64,000 nt of DNA, taken from positions 1,152,001 to 1,216,000 of the forward strand of contig OY760175.1 of the NCBI GenBank assembly GCA_963663165.1, given 5' to 3'. The stretch is from an uncultured Desulfospira sp. (GTDB taxonomy: Bacteria > Desulfobacterota > Desulfobacteria > Desulfobacterales > Desulfobacteraceae). Made by a program: the position numbers. Shown here piece by piece: positions 15,001 through 21,000 of the stretch (position 1 is its first letter; each line of letters starts with the position of its first letter).

Positions 15001-18000
15001 ACCGGGGCCCTGGTCATGATGCGCAAAGACAGGATCACGATGGTCTGTACCGTGTTGACATCACTGGTGGAGCGGACAATAAGGCTGCCGGTCTTCAGAT
15101 GATCCAGGTTCCCAAAGGAAAAGGACTGGACCTTTCGCATCAAAGCGCTTCGCAGGTTGGCCCCGAATCCCATGGCCGCCACCACCGACAGCCGGTTGTT
15201 GGCCAGGGCAAAGACCATGGAAAGGATGGCGGCACCGGCCATGCCAAGGGCCGTGGTCACCACCACAGAAAGGTCATTGGCCAGGATTCCCTGATCAATG
15301 ATCCGCTGGGCCAGGCGGGGAATGGCAAGGTCGGCCGCCACCATGAACAGCAGCAGGACCAGGGCGGTCACCGCCTGGAAGCCATAGGGGCGCAAAAACC
15401 GGTAAAGGCGGGGAAGAAATGTCACCGGTCCCCCTGACGGGTATCTTCTGACCCTTTCGGGCCGTTGGCATCTTGTTCCCGGGTTTGCCCGGACAAATGA
15501 TGCTGGACTTTGAGCAGGGAAGAGACCAGATTGTCCTGTTCGGCCCGGCTCAGCACCGAGGTGAGTTCAAGGTCCAGCTCTTTAAAAGTTTTACGGATTT
15601 CCCTGCCCAGGGATCTGGCTTTTTCAGTCAAAAACACCTGGATGACCCTCTGATCGGCCGCCAGTCGCCGGCGCTGGACCCAGCCGTTTTTTTCCATTCG
15701 CTGCAGGGTGCTGGTGGTCGTGGCCGGGGTGATGTTCAAGGCATGGGCAAGGGTCGCCTGGGCCACCCCGTCTTTATGCCAGAGATCAGCCAGCACCATC
15801 CCCTGGGTATGGGACAGCCCGAACTCATGCAGTTTTAAGCGCATGCGCATCCCCACAAGCCGGCTGACATGGGCCAGCAGATGCCCGATGGTCTGTTTTT
15901 GAGAATCTGAATTAAAATGGGTCATTTTTATTAGCGGTCTAATTATTAGATATCAAACTAATAACTGGGCTGAAATATATTGTCAACCCAAAACACACGG
16001 GATAAAAGAAAACCGGAAACGAAAGACCGGATATGGCGCCCCCCTCTGGTTTATGCATTCCGGTGTGCGGTTTTCGGTTTGTTTCATTTTCCCCTGATTT
16101 ATCCCAGGCTGATCCGGGTGTCAGCATTTCTTACACCTTGGAAAAACAGCCCGGCACTTTTTTTTCATCTGCATTTTCCCAAAGGCTGCCTCATCCGGGA
16201 TTTATATCAAAGTCTCACTAACATCTTGAGAAGACTTTAAAGCATTTGTTGTGGGCGGTTCTTGGTTGGATAACCAAGCGGCCCGTGGCCGTTTCGCCGA
16301 TGAATTCACAAAAATCTTACCCCTTCCCCCCTTTATTGTGCCGGATTTGGCCCGACCCGTGCCCCGCCGGCCCTGTCTGGCACCCAACTTGCTACTGTCC
16401 TGTATAGTTCAATATAGAACCAGGGGCTTGAAAGTCCTTTACTGATGAATGGCAATGAATTGCCAGGGGGGAAGACTTCATGTTTTATTCTACCCGGTCC
16501 AAACTTGTTTTAGGCCTGATCAGTGTTGCGCTGGTGGTGGGGAGCATCTCATTTACGGCCGGCTGGCGCCTCCTGTACAACTCTGTACTCAATGAAGCGT
16601 TTAACCGGGTCCGGCAGGACCTGAATGTGGCCCGGGTCATCTATGACGACCGGGTTAAGGCCATTTGCATTTCCCTCCAAACCGCTGCTGAGGCCGATGA
16701 CCTGAAATCCGCACTGGCCCATAAGGATTTACGCCTTCCCATGGATCGGGTCCGCCACCAGTCCCTCAAGCTCAACCTGGATTTTTCCGGCATTTTGACC
16801 CCCGACGGCCAGGTCATTCCCTGTTCCGGCTTTGAGGCATCACCCCCTCCCCAAAAAGCCGACCTGCCCATGGCCGCAAAAGCCTTTCAAGAAAAACAGA
16901 CCATATCCGGAACCGCCATCGCCGGCCAGGGGCTTGTGGCCGGGGCGGCTGTTCCCGTCACCTTTGGCAATGGCGTCACCGCGGTTGTTTTCGGCGGTAT
17001 CCGCCTGAACCAGGATGTGACCATTGTGGACAAGATCGGGGATACGGTGTTTAGAAACGAGGTGTACAAGGGACGGAATGTGGGCACGGCCACCATCTTT
17101 TTTAAAGACTTGAGAATCTCCACCTCGGTACTGACCTCTGACGGGACAAGGGCCGTGGGCACCCGGGCAAGCGACGCGGTTGCCCGTCAGGTGCTGGGCA
17201 ACGGCCTGAACTGGACCGACCGGGCCTTTGTGGTCAATGACTGGTACATCACCGCTTATGAACCCATCCTGGACATTTTTGGGAACCGGGCCGGCATGCT
17301 TTATGTCGGGGTACTGGAAGCCAAATACAGGGATGTCCGGCAAAAAGCCATCTGGCTGTTTTCCGCCGTCATCCTGGTGGGGGTGCTGCTGGCCATTGGT
17401 GCCGGTACCCTTCTGGCCGCCCGGATCATGCAGCCGGTCAGCCACCTGATCCAGGCCAGCGCCCAGATCGCCAAAGGCAACCTGTCGCCGGATATCGGAC
17501 CGGCCAGCTCAGGCGACATCGGGCTGCTTCAAAAGGCCTTTATATCCATGTCCCAGTCCCTGGTCAGGCGGAATCAGGAACAGCTCGAAGAACGAAGACG
17601 GGAGCTGATCCGATCGGAAAAACAGGCCAGCATCGGCAAACTGGCTGCCGGGGTGGCCCATGAAATCAACAATCCCCTGACACCGGTACTGACCTTTACC
17701 CATCTGCTTTTAAACAGAAAAGACCTGCCCGAGCCGGTGCGAAAAGACCTTGAGACCATTGCCTTTCAGACCGAACGGGTCAGAAAGATTGTCAAAGGAC
17801 TGCTGGACTTTTCCCGACAGCCCAAGCTGGACCGGGAGACCATTGATCCGGGTGCGCTGCTGTCGGACACGGTGGAGCTGATGAAAAACCAGGCCCTGCT
17901 CCAGCAGGTTTCTCTTGTTTATGAAGGGCAAATACCCCTGCCCCTGGTCCGGATCGATAAAAACCAGATCCAGAGTGTGATCGTCAACCTGGTGATCAAT

Positions 18001-21000
18001 GCCCTGGATGCCACCGGACCCGGCGGCAGTGTCCGGGTAACCGCCATGCCTTTTGTTGAAAATCAGGTTGAGGGCATTGAAATTAAGGTCCGGGATACCG
18101 GTTCAGGCATCAGTCCTGAAGATATGAACAAACTGTTTGAACCTTTTTTTACCACCAAGCCGGCCGGAGAGGGCACCGGCTTAGGCCTTGCCGTATCCCT
18201 TGGCATTGTGGAGCGCCATGGCGGCCGGATCAGGGTGGAAAGCAGCCCGGGCCAGGGGGCTTGTTTTTTTGTCCGGCTGCCCTGCAATACCCGGGAAACG
18301 GCGGCAAAGGAGGGGATATGAACATTCTGGTAGTGGACGATGATGGCATGGTGGTGGAAAGCTGCAAACGGATTCTTCTCGATGCCGGATTTGCCGTGAT
18401 CACAGCCCCGGATGCGCACACGGCCATCACCTTGCTCAAAGAGGGCACCACGTCCGTGGACATGGTCCTTACGGACATCAAAATGCCGGGCATGGACGGA
18501 TTCAGTTTAATTGAACAGATCAACCAGGCCTTTCCCGGGACCGCGGTCCTGATGATGACCGGCTACCTTGTGCCGGAAACAAAAATCAAAGGATCGGATC
18601 TCGGGGCCCGGGGCTGCATTGCCAAACCCTTTACCCCGGATGAACTCACCTATGCGGTAAAAAAGGCAATGACGGCAGCAGAACCATATTCTTCCCCGGT
18701 TCAGGGGATAACAAAGGGAGACAAAAAATGAAAAAAGACCGGATGCTTGTAATTGATGATGACAATGCCGTCCTGATTTCCTGTCAGGCAATTTTCCGGG
18801 ATAGCGGGTTTGAGGTGGATGTGACCTCAGACCCCAGGGCAGGGATTGAAATGAGCACCAAAGGTAACTATGCCGTTATCTTATGCGACTGGAAAATGCC
18901 GGGTCTCAACGGTCTGGATGTGATATCCGAACTTGAAGAGCGCAGCCCGGATTCCGCCGTGGTCATGTTCAGCGGCTTTCCATCCCCGGACCGGGCGGCA
19001 GAGGCCATTAAAAGAGGGGCCATGGAATTTCTAACCAAACCCTTTACCCCGGATGAACTCACCGGTGCGGTCCAAAAGGCCCTTAAGGGAAAGGTGAACC
19101 AGGAGAAAAAAGTCATGACCCGGGCCCAGCAGGTGCTTGGAAAATTCCCGGTGCCCAGCCTGGACGACAAGGGGCCCGGGATCATTGCCGAAACCGTGGC
19201 CCAGACCGTGGGCGTGGCCAAGGCCAACTCTCCCTGGATCTCTTTGTTTGTCCTGGGGGTACTGGCCGGGGCCTATATCGGATTTGGCGGGCTTTTTTCC
19301 ACCTCCGTCACCTTTGACTTTTCCCCTGCCCTGGGGCTGGGCTTTAAGAAACTGGTCTCTGGCGCGGCCTTCAGTATTGGCCTGATGCTGGTGGTGATCG
19401 CCGGTGCCGAGCTGTTTACCGGCAACAGCCTCATGGTGTCCAGTGTCATGACCGGGCAGATCACCTTAAAAAAGATGGCGGCCCAGTGGGGCATTGTCTA
19501 TGGGGCCAATTTCCTGGGGTCTGTGCTGCTGGCCCTTCTGTTCTACGGGTCCGGCCTGTGGAAGGCCGGCAATGGCCAGCTGGGACTTTCAGCGGTCAAC
19601 GTTGCCCTGGCCAAGGTTCACCTGCCCTGGAGCGAAGCCTTTATCCGGGCTGTGGGGTGTAACTGGATGGTCTGCCTGGCCGTGTGGATGGCCCTGGCCT
19701 CCCGCCAGACCATTTCCAAGATCTTTGCCGTTTTCTTTCCCATCATGGGGTTTGTGGCCATTGGATTTGAGCATTGCGTGGCCAACATGTACTTTATCCC
19801 CTCGGGTATTTTTCTTTCCCATTGGGCCGGGATCGCCGGGCCTGCCGGTGCTGACCTGACCTGGACCGCCTTTATTGTTAACAACCTGGTGCCGGTCACC
19901 CTGGGCAATATTATTGGCGGTGCTTTGTTTGTGGGGGTGGGTTACTGGGGGGCCTACTTAAGGCCCAAGGCCGATGCCGTCCGATAGCCGGTGTCTGGGT
20001 GGACCTTGTGGACATGGTGGCCCCAGTGGACCTTTGTGACTGAGAATTGTTTACGGATCGGGGCCTTACATGGGGTGGCCGGGGTTATGATGGAACCGGG
20101 GAAAAAGGAAGACAGGGAGGGCATTTTCTTTGCCCTCCCTGTCTTTTACGGCGTTCTCATAATTTAGGTGAAATTTCAATGCCAGGCTGGATCTTTTCAA
20201 TTTTAATGGTTTCTTTCTGGGGTTTTTTCTCGTTTTCCGCCTGGACGTGCTTGACGGTTTCAGTGCCTGCGACAACCGCCACAAAAATGGACCCGCAGAT
20301 AACGGTCAGTGCCGTTGTCCCAACAAATGCCTGGGCTGAATGAACTGTGCCAAACGATACCATCGCCAGGATGGCGATCCCTATCACTAAGCTTTTTTTC
20401 ATCATCACAACCTCCTTGATTATTTCGGTTGCACCGATTTCCGGCTTTAACAACTGACTTCCGGTCAGTTAACTATATTATAATTAACCAGCGGTCATCT
20501 GTCAACTGACAAATGACCACTGGTCAATTATTTTTTTCGTCCAAAATTCCGGTGTCGGCCCACAGGGTAAAACAACGCCCGGCTCATGTTCATCCCCCCA
20601 TAATTTCGCGGATAGTGAACCTTGAAATATTACGGGTTGTCATTTGGGCTCTGATACATCTATAATGTGGACACATGCCGACAAATACATGATGTTCAAT
20701 ATCCGCAAAAGTTAATGAAGAAAGGAGTTCAAATGCCGGCCCAAACTGTTGTTGTTGCCGGATGGGGACAGGTAACCCAGCCAAAACACCTTGAAACCAA
20801 AGCCAAAGACCCCATGGGACTGATGGCCCAGGCCTCCTGGACGGCTGCCGGAATGCTCAAGAATCCCAAATGCTTTGCCGCTGTGGACGGCCTGTTTGCC
20901 GTAAAAAGCCTGAGTGCCTATTATAAAACCCCGGCCCTGGATCTTGCCCGGCAACTGGGGCTCAATCCCAAGGTGTCCTTGGAATCCCACATCGGCGGCA

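What a model noticed while it worked through the whole genome (the two positions that open the first line are those of the whole stretch)
16480..19987. Formate channel (FocA) with an N-terminal response-regulator receiver domain, in a three-gene two-component operon
g01055 (419 aa) is a formate/nitrite-transporter-family channel (aa 156-407, 41-45% identical to FocA of E. coli, Haemophilus and methanogens) preceded by a complete CheY-like receiver domain (aa 7-115) with all phospho-acceptor residues (DD10-11, D54, S82, K104). It is the last gene of an operon with a Cache/HAMP sensor histidine kinase (g01053) and a stand-alone receiver protein (g01054), with overlapping stop/start codons. This predicts a formate channel whose gating is set directly by phosphorylation from a sensor kinase, rather than by transcription or by pyruvate formate-lyase as in enterobacteria. 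It is the only FNT channel in the genome.
Evidence so far: pfam.tsv Response_reg 89.6 bits (E 4e-26) and Form_Nir_trans 269 bits; Swiss-Prot alignments start at residue 154; receiver residues read from the sequence; gene map; only FNT gene, and the only glycyl-radical enzyme gene lies elsewhere. Distribution: in 40 other Desulfobacterales genomes an FNT match at E<=1e-40 in 4, and only one (G005, 65% identical) covers residues 5-414 in one frame, i.e. has the fusion. Search 'formate channel'+FocA+'receiver domain': 0 papers.
(Added by a program. Inside this text positions count along the whole contig: contig position 1,152,001 is position 1 of the stretch shown here. "Call 12" and the like, gene names such as g00115 and contig names such as C1 are that model's own, and its searches are not shown. 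The text may have been shortened before it was handed on; [...] marks where a part breaks off. The agent that wrote the report below was given it as the finding of a first reader that could run no searches.)

Follow-up and report, generated by a model that had tools for sequence, protein, structure and literature searches.

The report
Receiver-fused formate channel with formate sensor
One operon encodes a formate channel fused to a phosphorylation switch, together with a kinase whose outer sensor closely resembles known formate-binding sensors, so the cell probably opens or closes its formate gate directly in response to formate outside; no experiment has tested this.

Summary
Window 16480-19987 (+) holds three translationally coupled genes. 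They are a Cache/HAMP histidine kinase (613 aa), a stand-alone receiver (137 aa), and a 419-aa protein with a complete receiver (aa 7-115) joined to a FocA-like FNT channel (aa 156-407). This is the only FNT gene in the 6.74-Mb genome.

The fusion occurs full-length in 32 of 400 sampled genomes of the order and in 13 genomes of other orders of the phylum. All 120 listed database hits carry both domains. The kinase-receiver-fusion order held in 20 of 20 loci examined.

New here:
- The kinase's periplasmic domain has as its only PDB sequence hits, and its top two structural matches, the formate-bound Cache sensors 8PY0 and 8PY1.
- All published formate-ligating residues are kept: T205, R212, T215, T228, Y260.
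- A sigma-54-type promoter precedes the operon in 19 of 21 loci.
- An independent channel-receiver fusion with the receiver at the C-terminus, in Chloroflexota, sits beside a homologous kinase.

Best reading: a formate-sensing two-component system whose output is the channel itself. Phosphorylation of D54 would act through the conserved linker on the FocA-type N-terminal gating helix. Gating, ligand and phosphotransfer are inferred. The scan noted this architecture before on other DNA (e1-971274). I found no paper on it.

The parts
16378..16393 (+). Sigma-54-type promoter-like site TGGCAC-N5-TTGCT, 87-102 bp upstream of the kinase start codon
   Evidence: It is the only exact match in the 64-kb window (0.20 expected by chance). 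A site with at most 2 mismatches and GG/GC kept lies within 400 bp upstream of the kinase gene in 19 of 21 loci. The reverse complement gives 1 of 21 and shuffles a mean of 0.8 of 21. The consensus itself is recalled.
16480..18321 (+). Sensor histidine kinase, 613 aa: TM1, periplasmic two-module Cache domain, TM2, HAMP, HisKA (H394), HATPase_c
   Evidence: H394 is kept in 21 of 21 orthologues. A full-length homologue (39-56% identity) lies directly upstream of the fusion in 20 of 20 loci.
16570..17355 (+). Periplasmic sensor region of the kinase (aa 31-292), predicted as two alpha/beta modules (aa 100-176 and 180-280)
   Evidence: AF2 model of aa 1-325: pLDDT 88.2, pTM 0.78. Foldseek finds dCache ligand-binding domains. 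VIA-align top hits are 8py1 (Z 17.6, rmsd 2.3 over 136 residues) and 8py0 (Z 16.8, rmsd 2.2 over 148 residues). Module 1 matches CitA 2j80 (Z 14.1, model residues 52-176).
17005..17343 (+). Formate-type Cache module (aa 176-288, sCache_3_3) with T205, R212, T215, T228, Y260
   Evidence: The only PDB sequence hits of the sensor region are 8py1 (2e-5) and 8py0 (5e-5). Residues were mapped from those alignments onto the formate ligands given in PMC11804620. Conservation in 21 kinases: T205 18 T + 3 S; R212 20 of 21; T215 21 of 21; T228 20 T + 1 S; Y260 21 of 21.
18318..18731 (+). Stand-alone receiver protein, 137 aa; its ATG overlaps the kinase stop (ATGA)
   Evidence: Response_reg 94.7 bits. The overlap is seen. 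A homologue lies between the kinase and the fusion in 20 of 20 loci.
18728..19987 (+). Receiver-FNT fusion protein, 419 aa; its ATG overlaps the receiver gene's stop (ATGA)
18746..19072 (+). Receiver domain of the fusion (aa 7-115), phospho-acceptor D54
   Evidence: Response_reg 90.2 bits. D10/D11/D54/S82/K104 are kept at 100/99/100/95/100% in 125 homologues, and position 101 is F or Y.
19073..19192 (+). Connector (aa 116-155): extension of helix alpha-5, a conserved F140-P141 ... D146-D147-K148-x-P150 stretch, and the start of the FocA-type N-terminal cytoplasmic region
   Evidence: Residues at 90% or more in 77 sequences include E126, K127, F140, P141, D146, D147, K148, P150 and I153-A158. 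FocA residues 11-16 align with aa 150-154. AF2 pLDDT is below 50 for aa 128-168.
19193..19948 (+). FNT channel domain (aa 156-407), FocA-like, with T231 and H349 (E. coli/Salmonella FocA T91 and H209)
   Evidence: Form_Nir_trans 269.5 bits. The alignment to 3q7k places T231 on T91 and H349 on H209. T231, E348, H349 and N353 are kept at 98% or more in 125 homologues.
20109..20145 (.). 15-bp-stem hairpin between the operon and a convergent small ORF; a likely two-way terminator
   Evidence: One search lists it on the minus strand (15 pairs, 9 G-C). The sequence shows the stem followed by TTTTAC on the + strand. Function not tested.

Best explanation
This is a formate-responsive two-component system whose output is a membrane channel and not a transcription factor. 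Periplasmic formate binds the second Cache module of the kinase (R212 salt bridge; T205, T215, T228 and Y260 hydrogen bonds). The signal passes through TM2 and HAMP to autophosphorylation of H394. The phosphoryl group goes to D54 of the receiver fused to the N-terminus of a FocA-like pentameric channel, and to the stand-alone receiver. In E. coli FocA the cytoplasmic N-terminal helix gates transport in both directions and is operated by pyruvate formate-lyase. Here the receiver, through its extended alpha-5 helix and a strongly conserved connector, sits directly on that same N-terminal region. Receiver phosphorylation is therefore proposed to set the open probability, or the direction, of formate passage. 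The stand-alone receiver most likely competes for phosphoryl groups, acting as a sink that sets threshold and decay. The operon is also under sigma-54-dependent transcription by an unidentified activator. Shown: gene structure, domains, residue conservation, operon conservation, similarity of the sensor to formate-bound sensors, and an independent second fusion. Inferred: formate as ligand and substrate, phosphotransfer, gating and its sign.
For: (1) The fused gene is real and conserved. All 120 of 120 listed hits (65-96% identity, 412-427 aa) carry PF00072 and PF01226. It is full-length in one frame in 32 of 400 other genomes of the order, spanning 13 families. In a phylum sample it occurs in 17 of 400 genomes, 13 of them outside the order in 7 further families.
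(2) Phospho-acceptor residues and the channel's T231/H349 are near-invariant in 125 homologues. The connector is as conserved as the domains.
(3) The kinase-receiver-fusion order on one strand holds in 20 of 20 fetched loci, while the flanks differ. ATGA overlaps occur at both junctions. The window's operon encodes no DNA-binding output.
(4) The sensor region's only PDB sequence hits are 8py0 and 8py1, which are also the top two structural matches. The Pfam pattern, a full sCache_3_3 match plus a partial Cache_3-Cache_2 match, is the one the authors give for formate sensors (PMC11804620, section 8). All five ligating positions are conserved in 21 kinases. The formate-type module is more conserved than module 1 (mean identity 0.61 against 0.36). 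A second paper found that an sCache_3_3 domain with these residues binds formate (PMC12415202, passage).
(5) FocA's N-terminal helix gates transport and binds PflB (PMC11841067, passages). Here the only PFL-like gene is 1.1 Mb away.
(6) An independent channel-receiver fusion with the receiver at the C-terminus, in another FNT clade, occurs in Chloroflexota. In 3 of 8 full-length loci a homologous kinase lies within 5 kb. The one compared in full is 36% identical over 499 aa and keeps all five residues.
(7) Cytoplasmic formate metabolism is present: two FDH alpha genes above the TIGR01591 cut-off and one formyl-THF synthetase.
Against: There are no functional data of any kind, and no RNA run was available. 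The AF2 model gives the connector (aa 128-168) pLDDT below 50 and pTM 0.57, so it does not show how the receiver meets the channel. The FocA equivalog cut-off is not reached (237.7 against 290.1), and FNT channels are known to pass several small anions, so the substrate is not proven. The formate-type module is the second module in sequence, next to TM2, whereas PacF binds formate in the membrane-distal module. Module 1 (CitA-like) could bind another ligand. One of the 21 kinases (L032) has P at the Arg position in my alignment. More distant operons insert one or two extra receiver proteins with an unknown C-terminal domain, so the channel need not be the only output. In 2 of 20 loci a tandem DsrC-like gene follows the fusion, which hints at sulfur chemistry. 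Five receivers under a pentamer do not fit the usual dimer-based receiver mechanism.
Confidence: 0.6

Rival explanations
1. Transceptor or sink model. The channel transports constitutively and its fused receiver is not an output. Instead it serves as a flux-dependent phosphate sink or co-sensor that tunes the kinase, much as DcuB/DctA tune DcuS (recalled). The real output would run through the stand-alone receiver or the extra receiver proteins to unknown partners.
For: At least one further receiver protein is always present (20 of 20 loci). In 8 more distant loci there are one or two 208-214-aa receiver proteins with an unassigned C-terminal domain of about 90 aa. AF2 shows no confident receiver-channel contact.
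Against: In the window and the closer loci the operon holds no protein with a recognisable effector domain other than the channel. The connector between receiver and channel is highly conserved, which a passive tether would not need. A receiver was fused to FNT channels twice independently, at opposite ends. PilZ and CBS domains, which are typical allosteric regulators, are fused to other FNT channels.
Confidence: 0.17
2. Other signal or other cargo. The kinase senses a different small carboxylate or anion, possibly through module 1. Alternatively the channel mainly carries another FNT substrate (nitrite, hydrosulfide, lactate/acetate, bicarbonate) in these sulfate-reducer-type bacteria.
For: The FocA equivalog cut-off is not met. 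LCIA (9v2a, E 3.8e-39), NirC and the hydrosulfide channel are also significant relatives. Tandem DsrC-like genes follow directly downstream in 2 of 20 loci, one with an APS kinase gene next. Module 1 resembles the citrate sensor CitA (Z 14.1).
Against: FocA structures and models score far better than NirC or HSC. All five published formate ligands are kept in the kinase, and module 1 is poorly conserved. FdhD lies next to the fusion in one locus (L020). The genome has cytoplasmic FDHs and no other FNT channel.
Confidence: 0.15
3. Artefact: two genes, a receiver and a channel, read as one because of a lost stop codon or an assembly error.
For: None found.
Against: The same single frame is seen in 32 of 400 and 17 of 400 sampled genomes and in 120 of 120 listed database clusters from five sources. 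The unfused channel's N-terminal region aligns from aa 139-150 onward with no start or stop between the domains.
Confidence: 0.01

Closest known systems
E. coli / Salmonella FocA with its partner pyruvate formate-lyase PflB
   Same: The FNT fold match is best to FocA. The central Thr/His pair (T91/H209) and E208/N213 are kept. The cytoplasmic N-terminal region that gates FocA is retained from about FocA residue 11 (gating role from PMC11841067, passages).
   Different: There is no adjacent pflB; the only PFL-like gene is 1.1 Mb away. A receiver domain plus conserved connector precedes the N-terminal region. The gene lies in a two-component operon. It scores below NCBIfam's FocA equivalog cut-off.
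Formate-binding Cache sensors: PacF, Atu0526, and the sCache domains 8PY0/8PY1 (Monteagudo-Cascales et al., PNAS 2025, PMC11804620)
   Same: The Pfam pattern is the same (sCache_3_3 full, Cache_3-Cache_2 partial). These are the best sequence and structure matches. The Arg, three Thr and Tyr that hold formate are conserved.
   Different: Those sensors are 'almost exclusively' in chemoreceptors (paper, section 8). Here the module is in a histidine kinase, and it is the second of two periplasmic modules, next to TM2. Identity is only 22-25%. Binding is untested.
Classical two-component systems with single-domain receivers (CheY; phosphate-sink receivers such as Sinorhizobium CheY1; recalled)
   Same: Kinase with an H-box His, receivers with a full acidic pocket, and an operon with translational coupling.
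   Different: The output domain is a six-helix channel protomer that assembles as a pentamer (pentamer known from FocA structures; not tested here). The window's operon has no DNA-binding or enzymatic output.
DcuS-DcuB / DctB-DctA carboxylate sensing, where a transporter is co-sensor of a Cache/PAS kinase (recalled)
   Same: A periplasmic Cache/PAS kinase for a small carboxylate is functionally tied to the transporter of that carboxylate. DctB and CitA sensor domains are structural relatives.
   Different: There the link is a non-covalent kinase-transporter contact and the output is transcriptional. Here a receiver is covalently fused to the channel.
Other FNT channels with fused cytoplasmic regulatory domains, seen here in databases and not found in the papers searched
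   Same: FNT with a C-terminal receiver (Chloroflexota), PilZ (Ca. Magnetominusculus) or a CBS pair (Aliivibrio 'FocA', 487-489 aa). The shared theme is a signal-receiving domain on the cytoplasmic side.
   Different: The domain, the terminus and the FNT clade all differ. None is characterised as far as my searches show.

Membership tests
Formate/nitrite transporter (FNT) family, PF01226 / TIGR00790 | Score above the curated family cut-offs over the whole domain | tested here: met
   PF01226 scores 269.5 bits (cut-off 34.6) over profile positions 5-239 of 240. TIGR00790 scores 252.8 (cut-off 232.3).
FocA (formate channel) in the strict sense | NCBIfam equivalog score (TIGR04060 / NF008069) | tested here: not met
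   TIGR04060 scores 237.7, below 290.1. NF008069 scores 196.2, below 440. FocA is still the best-scoring subfamily.
FocA (formate channel) in the strict sense | Central Thr (T91) and His (H209) of the pore, with E208 and N213 | tested here: met
   T231, H349, E348 and N353 align with them in 3q7k and are kept at 98% or more in 125 homologues.
FocA (formate channel) in the strict sense | Genetic and physical coupling to pyruvate formate-lyase (focA-pflB operon) | tested here: not met
   The single PFL-like gene is at contig position 70,514-72,457, 1.1 Mb from the window.
FocA (formate channel) in the strict sense | Formate conductance; pentameric assembly | not testable with these tools
   A pentamer of 5 x 419 aa exceeds the complex tool's size limit.
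Response regulator receiver (PF00072) | Domain score and the five phospho-chemistry residues (DD, D, S/T, K) | tested here: met
   90.2 bits. D10, D11, D54, S82 and K104 are present and conserved.
Two-component system (kinase to receiver phosphotransfer) | HisKA with H-box His, HATPase_c, and a cognate receiver in the same operon | tested here: met
   HisKA 53.4 and HATPase_c 98.1 bits. H394 is kept in 21 of 21. The operon is kept in 20 of 20 loci. Phosphotransfer itself is not testable here.
Formate-binding Cache domains (PMC11804620) | Full sCache_3_3 match or partial Cache_3-Cache_2 match | tested here: met
   sCache_3_3 covers profile positions 3-105 of 107 at 103.2 bits. Cache_3-Cache_2 covers 100-195 of 299 at 63.8 bits.
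Formate-binding Cache domains (PMC11804620) | Arg (PacF R142), Thr (T145, T158), and the Thr and Tyr seen bonded to formate in 8PY0/8PY1 | tested here: met
   R212, T215, T228, T205 and Y260, mapped through the alignments. Conserved in 20-21 of 21 kinases, with T205 as T or S in 21 of 21.
Formate-binding Cache domains (PMC11804620) | Single module, or the membrane-distal module of a dCache domain | tested here: inconclusive
   The model has two modules and the formate-type one is second in sequence, next to TM2. No coordinates were available to me to judge the geometry.
Formate-binding Cache domains (PMC11804620) | Measured formate binding | not testable with these tools
   Needs ITC or thermal shift on the purified domain.
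Sigma-54-dependent promoter | GG-N10-GC elements at the right spacing upstream of the first gene | tested here: met
   TGGCACCCAACTTGCT lies at 16378-16393. A related site is found in 19 of 21 loci, against 1 of 21 on the reverse complement. The activator was not identified: the genome has 51 PF00158 matches and none is adjacent.

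The most novel reading that the evidence does not exclude
FNT channels are direct end-points of bacterial signalling. In this family a kinase that senses periplasmic formate sets the conductance of the cell's only formate channel within seconds and without transcription, by phosphorylating a receiver that has taken over the gating role PflB has in enterobacteria. 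The same solution evolved twice, with the receiver at the N-terminus in Desulfobacterota and at the C-terminus in Chloroflexota, both with homologous formate-type kinases. PilZ and CBS fusions would place other FNT channels under c-di-GMP or adenine-nucleotide control. That would be the first response regulator whose output domain is a solute channel, and a new layer of control over formate exchange in anaerobic communities.
Probability: 0.45. Interest if true: 0.82.

Novelty: new variant of a known kind. Interest (0 to 1): 0.72.

Why it matters
Formate is a main currency of electron transfer between anaerobes. How cells control its passage is understood only for enterobacterial FocA, where pyruvate formate-lyase operates the N-terminal gate. 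This family offers a second, self-contained control circuit of sensor, phospho-switch and channel. It is widespread in sulfate-reducer lineages and appears to have been reinvented in Chloroflexota. It would extend two-component outputs from gene expression and enzymes to a solute channel.

It also supplies a natural system for studying FNT gating with defined on and off states (D54 variants, BeF3-). Finally, it gives the newly described formate-binding Cache family its first predicted role in a histidine kinase. Each step can be tested with standard biochemistry.

Tried and rejected
- Complex prediction with two copies of the channel domain (aa 145-419) plus the receiver (aa 1-127) returned no verdict (score 0.00, controls not run). 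It counts neither way.
- The look-up of sequencing runs listed no RNA holder, so read laying was not used and co-transcription is untested.
- The AF2 model of the whole fusion gave a low-confidence connector, so it offers no picture of receiver-channel contact.
- The careful tree search did not finish in 288 s; only the quick tree is reported.
- Conserved flanking genes were not found. The window's MarR, two ABC exporters, thiolase-like gene and DASS symporter had no tblastn match (E<=1e-10, >60 bits) in the 20 loci, and Pfam scans of the neighbours differ from locus to locus.
- I considered a hydrosulfide or sulfite channel because of DsrC-like neighbours in 2 of 20 loci. I kept it only as a minor rival.
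- A lost-stop artefact is rejected.
- The C-terminal domain of about 90 aa in the extra receiver proteins has no Pfam family, even at E<=5.
- The sigma-54 activator was not identified. The genome has 51 PF00158 matches, and the nearest lie about 30 kb downstream and about 10 kb before the window.
- Paper searches found nothing on a receiver-FNT fusion.
- The 2017 FNT phylogeny paper (PMC5525234) has 0 occurrences of 'response regulator', 'receiver', 'fused', 'additional domain', 'CBS' or 'Deltaproteobacteria' in its main text. Its supplements were not read.
- Galperin's 2006 response-regulator census could not be read because it is not held, so I cannot exclude that the architecture is listed there or in other subscription papers.

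Full report
WHAT IS THERE

Three ORFs lie on the + strand: 16480-18321 (613 aa), 18318-18731 (137 aa) and 18728-19987 (419 aa). Each start codon overlaps the preceding stop as ATGA, and each has a Shine-Dalgarno-like stretch before it.

Pfam reads the three proteins as follows:
- The first is a sensor kinase: sCache_3_3 (103.2 bits, aa 176-288), a partial Cache_3-Cache_2 match (63.8 bits), HAMP, HisKA and HATPase_c.
- The second is a bare receiver (94.7 bits).
- The third is a receiver (90.2 bits, aa 7-115) followed by Form_Nir_trans (269.5 bits, aa 156-407).

NCBIfam places the channel in the FNT subfamily (252.8, cut-off 232.3). FocA is the best sub-model, but it scores below its equivalog cut-off (237.7 against 290.1). 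NirC is far lower.

Solved relatives rank the same way: FocA of Vibrio, Salmonella and E. coli at E 1e-53 to 1e-51, NirC at 1.5e-32, and the hydrosulfide channel at 9e-31. In the alignment to Salmonella FocA, T231 and H349 fall on T91 and H209, and FocA residues 11-16 align with aa 150-154. The channel therefore keeps most of FocA's cytoplasmic N-terminal region.

The genome is one contig of 6.74 Mb. It has this single FNT gene and one PFL-like gene 1.1 Mb away. It also has two cytoplasmic-type formate dehydrogenase alpha genes above the TIGR01591 cut-off, one containing a TGA, and one formyl-THF synthetase.

A 15-bp-stem hairpin at 20109-20145 closes the operon against a convergent small ORF.

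HOW COMMON IT IS

In the 5.8-billion-protein collection, all 120 listed hits (65-96% identity, 412-427 aa) carry both Pfam domains. Source names include Desulfobacula, Desulfoluna, Desulfonema, Desulfosarcina, Desulfobacter, Desulfosediminicola, Desulforhopalus and Desulfopila. One submitter's name for the protein is 'response regulator receiver protein modulated with fnt'.

In 400 other genomes sampled from the order, 32 hold the fusion in one frame. Of these, 31 cover about query residues 3-415 and one is cut by a contig end. Two of the 32 show a stop codon in or beside the match. They span 13 families. In 25 genomes there is an FNT match that starts only at query residue 139-160, meaning an unfused channel.

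In 400 genomes sampled from the phylum, 17 hold the fusion. Thirteen of them lie outside the order, in seven further families.

In the 50%-identity library the fused form is represented by four full-length clusters at 62, 47, 45 and 45% identity, plus fragments.

In a quick maximum-likelihood tree of 131 FNT domains, the 11 N-terminal-receiver rows fall in one group of 13 (SH-aLRT 91). That group also holds two unfused channels, so the label needs two changes on the tree (the careful search did not finish).

Conservation across 125 fused homologues:
- D10, D11, D54, S82 and K104 are kept at 100, 99, 100, 95 and 100%.
- Position 101 is F or Y.
- T231, E348, H349 and N353 are kept at 98% or more.

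The connector is as conserved as the domains: E126, K127, F140, P141, D146, D147, K148, P150 and I153-A158 are each at 90% or more in 77 sequences. A lost-stop artefact is excluded.

THE OPERON

I fetched 20 of the 32 loci. Twenty regions is the limit of one call. I chose loci with room on the contig, and the other 12 were not examined.

In 20 of 20, a full-length homologue of the kinase (39-56% identity over about 600 aa) and at least one receiver gene lie directly upstream on the same strand. Twelve loci show the window's three-gene form. Eight more distant loci insert one or two receiver proteins of 208-214 aa, whose C-terminal stretch of about 90 aa matches no Pfam family.

None of the window's other neighbours recurs, and Pfam scans of the flanks differ from locus to locus. 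Exceptions worth noting are FdhD beside the fusion in L020 and a tandem DsrC-like gene directly downstream in L026 and L032.

WHAT THE KINASE SENSES

The periplasmic region (aa 31-295) has only two sequence hits in the PDB, 8PY1 (E 2e-5) and 8PY0 (5e-5). These are the sCache ligand-binding domains of two chemoreceptors solved with bound formate (Monteagudo-Cascales et al. 2025, PMC11804620; I read sections 8 and 9 and passages of 10, 11 and 21).

That paper describes formate sensors as giving a full sCache_3_3 match or a partial Cache_3-Cache_2 match, which is the pattern of this kinase. It names these ligands:
- an Arg (R118/R111; PacF R142);
- a Thr (T105/T100) and a Tyr (Y167/Y160);
- PacF T145 and T158.

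Through the two alignments these ligands map to R212, T205, Y260, T215 and T228. In the window's kinase plus the 20 orthologues they are kept as follows:
- R212: 20 of 21
- T205: 18 T and 3 S
- Y260: 21 of 21
- T215: 21 of 21
- T228: 20 T and 1 S

An AF2 model of aa 1-325 (pLDDT 88.2, pTM 0.78) shows a long helix and two alpha/beta modules, aa 100-176 and 180-280. Foldseek finds dCache domains. On re-alignment, 8py1 (Z 17.6, rmsd 2.3 Å over 136 residues, 25% identity) and 8py0 (Z 16.8, rmsd 2.2 Å over 148 residues) are the top two of 1000 chains. Module 1 matches the citrate sensor CitA (Z 14.1).

The formate-type module is better conserved than module 1, with mean identity to the window of 0.61 against 0.36. 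[quoted passage not shown]

The sensor domain has no paralogue in this genome. I read the kinase as a formate sensor. Binding is not shown, and the module's position next to TM2 differs from PacF.

A SECOND, INDEPENDENT FUSION

Among the longer FNT proteins in the representative library, Pfam finds a C-terminal receiver (P0145), a C-terminal PilZ (P0153), C-terminal CBS pairs (four proteins), TonB_C and DUF4389. They lie in other parts of the tree. By source names, the PilZ form is from Candidatus Magnetominusculus and one CBS form is the 487-489-aa 'FocA' of Aliivibrio.

A genome scan with P0145 gave eight loci with a full-length channel-receiver gene, seven in Chloroflexota MAGs and one labelled Omnitrophica. 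In three of the eight, a homologue of this kinase's sensor domain lies within 5 kb. Two further loci with sensor hits have the channel gene incomplete: in one the match covers only residues 13-380 of the 424-residue query, in the other the gene is cut by the contig end. None of the remaining 70 loci has such a hit.

In L035 the upstream kinase has the same architecture (sCache_3_3 112 bits, HAMP, HisKA, HATPase_c). It is 36% identical to the window's kinase over 499 aa and keeps all five formate positions. The pairing of this kinase type with a receiver-bearing FNT channel therefore arose, or was kept, in two phyla with the receiver at opposite ends.

TRANSCRIPTION

The only exact TGGCAC-N5-TTGCW site in the window lies 87-102 bp before the kinase start (0.20 expected per window). 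A site with at most two mismatches and the GG/GC dinucleotides kept lies within 400 bp upstream of the kinase gene in 19 of 21 loci. The reverse complement gives 1 of 21, and shuffles give a mean of 0.8 of 21. The operon is thus probably sigma-54-dependent. The activator is unknown: the genome has 51 candidates and none is adjacent.

MECHANISM

Shown: the anatomy, the conservation, the sensor's likeness to formate sensors, and the two fusions.

From established knowledge: FNT termini are cytoplasmic. FocA's N-terminal helix gates transport in both directions, is needed for the T91-H209 hydrogen bond, and is operated by PflB (PMC11841067, passages).

Inferred: formate binding at R212 activates the kinase. 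H394 passes phosphate to D54. The phosphorylated receiver, through its extended alpha-5 helix (AF2 helix 108-138) and the conserved connector, repositions the N-terminal region and changes conductance. The stand-alone receiver acts as a sink.

The sign (open or closed) and the direction (uptake for the cytoplasmic dehydrogenases, or release) cannot be told from sequence.

Rivals are a transceptor or sink role for the fused receiver, and another ligand or cargo.

PRIOR WORK

Six paper searches found nothing on this architecture. The main text of the FNT phylogeny paper does not mention fusions. Galperin's census was not available. The scan itself noted the same architecture earlier on another genome, with the same reading (e1-971274). 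My results agree with that note and add the formate-type sensor, the promoter, the counts and the second fusion.

VERDICT

This is a real, widespread and unstudied family. It is a new variant built from known parts, with a specific and testable mechanism.

Noticed in passing
window 8397-10279 (-): Three Rfam matches to group II intron parts (RF02001 125.7 bits, RF01998, RF00029) about 6 kb upstream of the operon, on the minus strand.
   Followed up: no
L024-L028, L031-L033 (e.g. L033:6442-7068:+, L026:9104-9733:-, L026:8416-9045:-): In the more distant operons, one or two receiver proteins of 208-214 aa sit between the stand-alone receiver and the fusion. Their conserved C-terminal stretch of about 90 aa matches no Pfam family, even at E<=5. 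It may be an unknown response-regulator output domain.
   Followed up: partly
L026:6421-7068:- and L032:8995-9711:+ (L032:9751-10407:+ next): A protein with two DsrC-like stretches is encoded directly downstream of the fusion on the same strand in 2 of 20 loci. In L032 an APS kinase gene follows.
   Followed up: no
P0153, P0155, P0185, P0199, P0234, P0241, P0191; names: FNT channels are also found fused to PilZ (Ca. Magnetominusculus), CBS pairs (including the 487-489-aa 'FocA' of Aliivibrio fischeri and relatives), TonB_C and DUF4389. My searches found no paper on these forms.
   Followed up: partly
L035:1775-7405 (Chloroflexota MAG): Gene order: a formate-type Cache kinase, a receiver-HATPase protein, a channel with a C-terminal receiver, then a receiver-HisKA-HATPase protein. 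This is a more elaborate phosphorelay around a receiver-fused FNT channel.
   Followed up: partly
L021:738-4347: A second sCache_3_3 kinase and a receiver/sigma-54 activator lie directly upstream of the kinase-receiver-fusion module. They may be a transcriptional arm of formate sensing.
   Followed up: no
L020:6296-7123:+: An FdhD/NarQ-family gene (formate dehydrogenase accessory protein) lies next to the fusion on the opposite strand. This is the only formate-enzyme neighbour seen in 20 loci.
   Followed up: no
window 20157-20453 (-): A small ORF (98 aa from TTG, with a shorter form from an internal ATG) converges on the operon. A perfect sigma-70-like promoter match lies at 20505-20477 on the minus strand. 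Its product was not examined.
   Followed up: no
G000 contig position 6,422,667-6,428,855: A sigma-54 activator gene lies beside a long FdnG-like formate dehydrogenase gene that contains a TGA (possible selenocysteine). It is a candidate formate-related regulator, and no link to the window's promoter has been shown.
   Followed up: no
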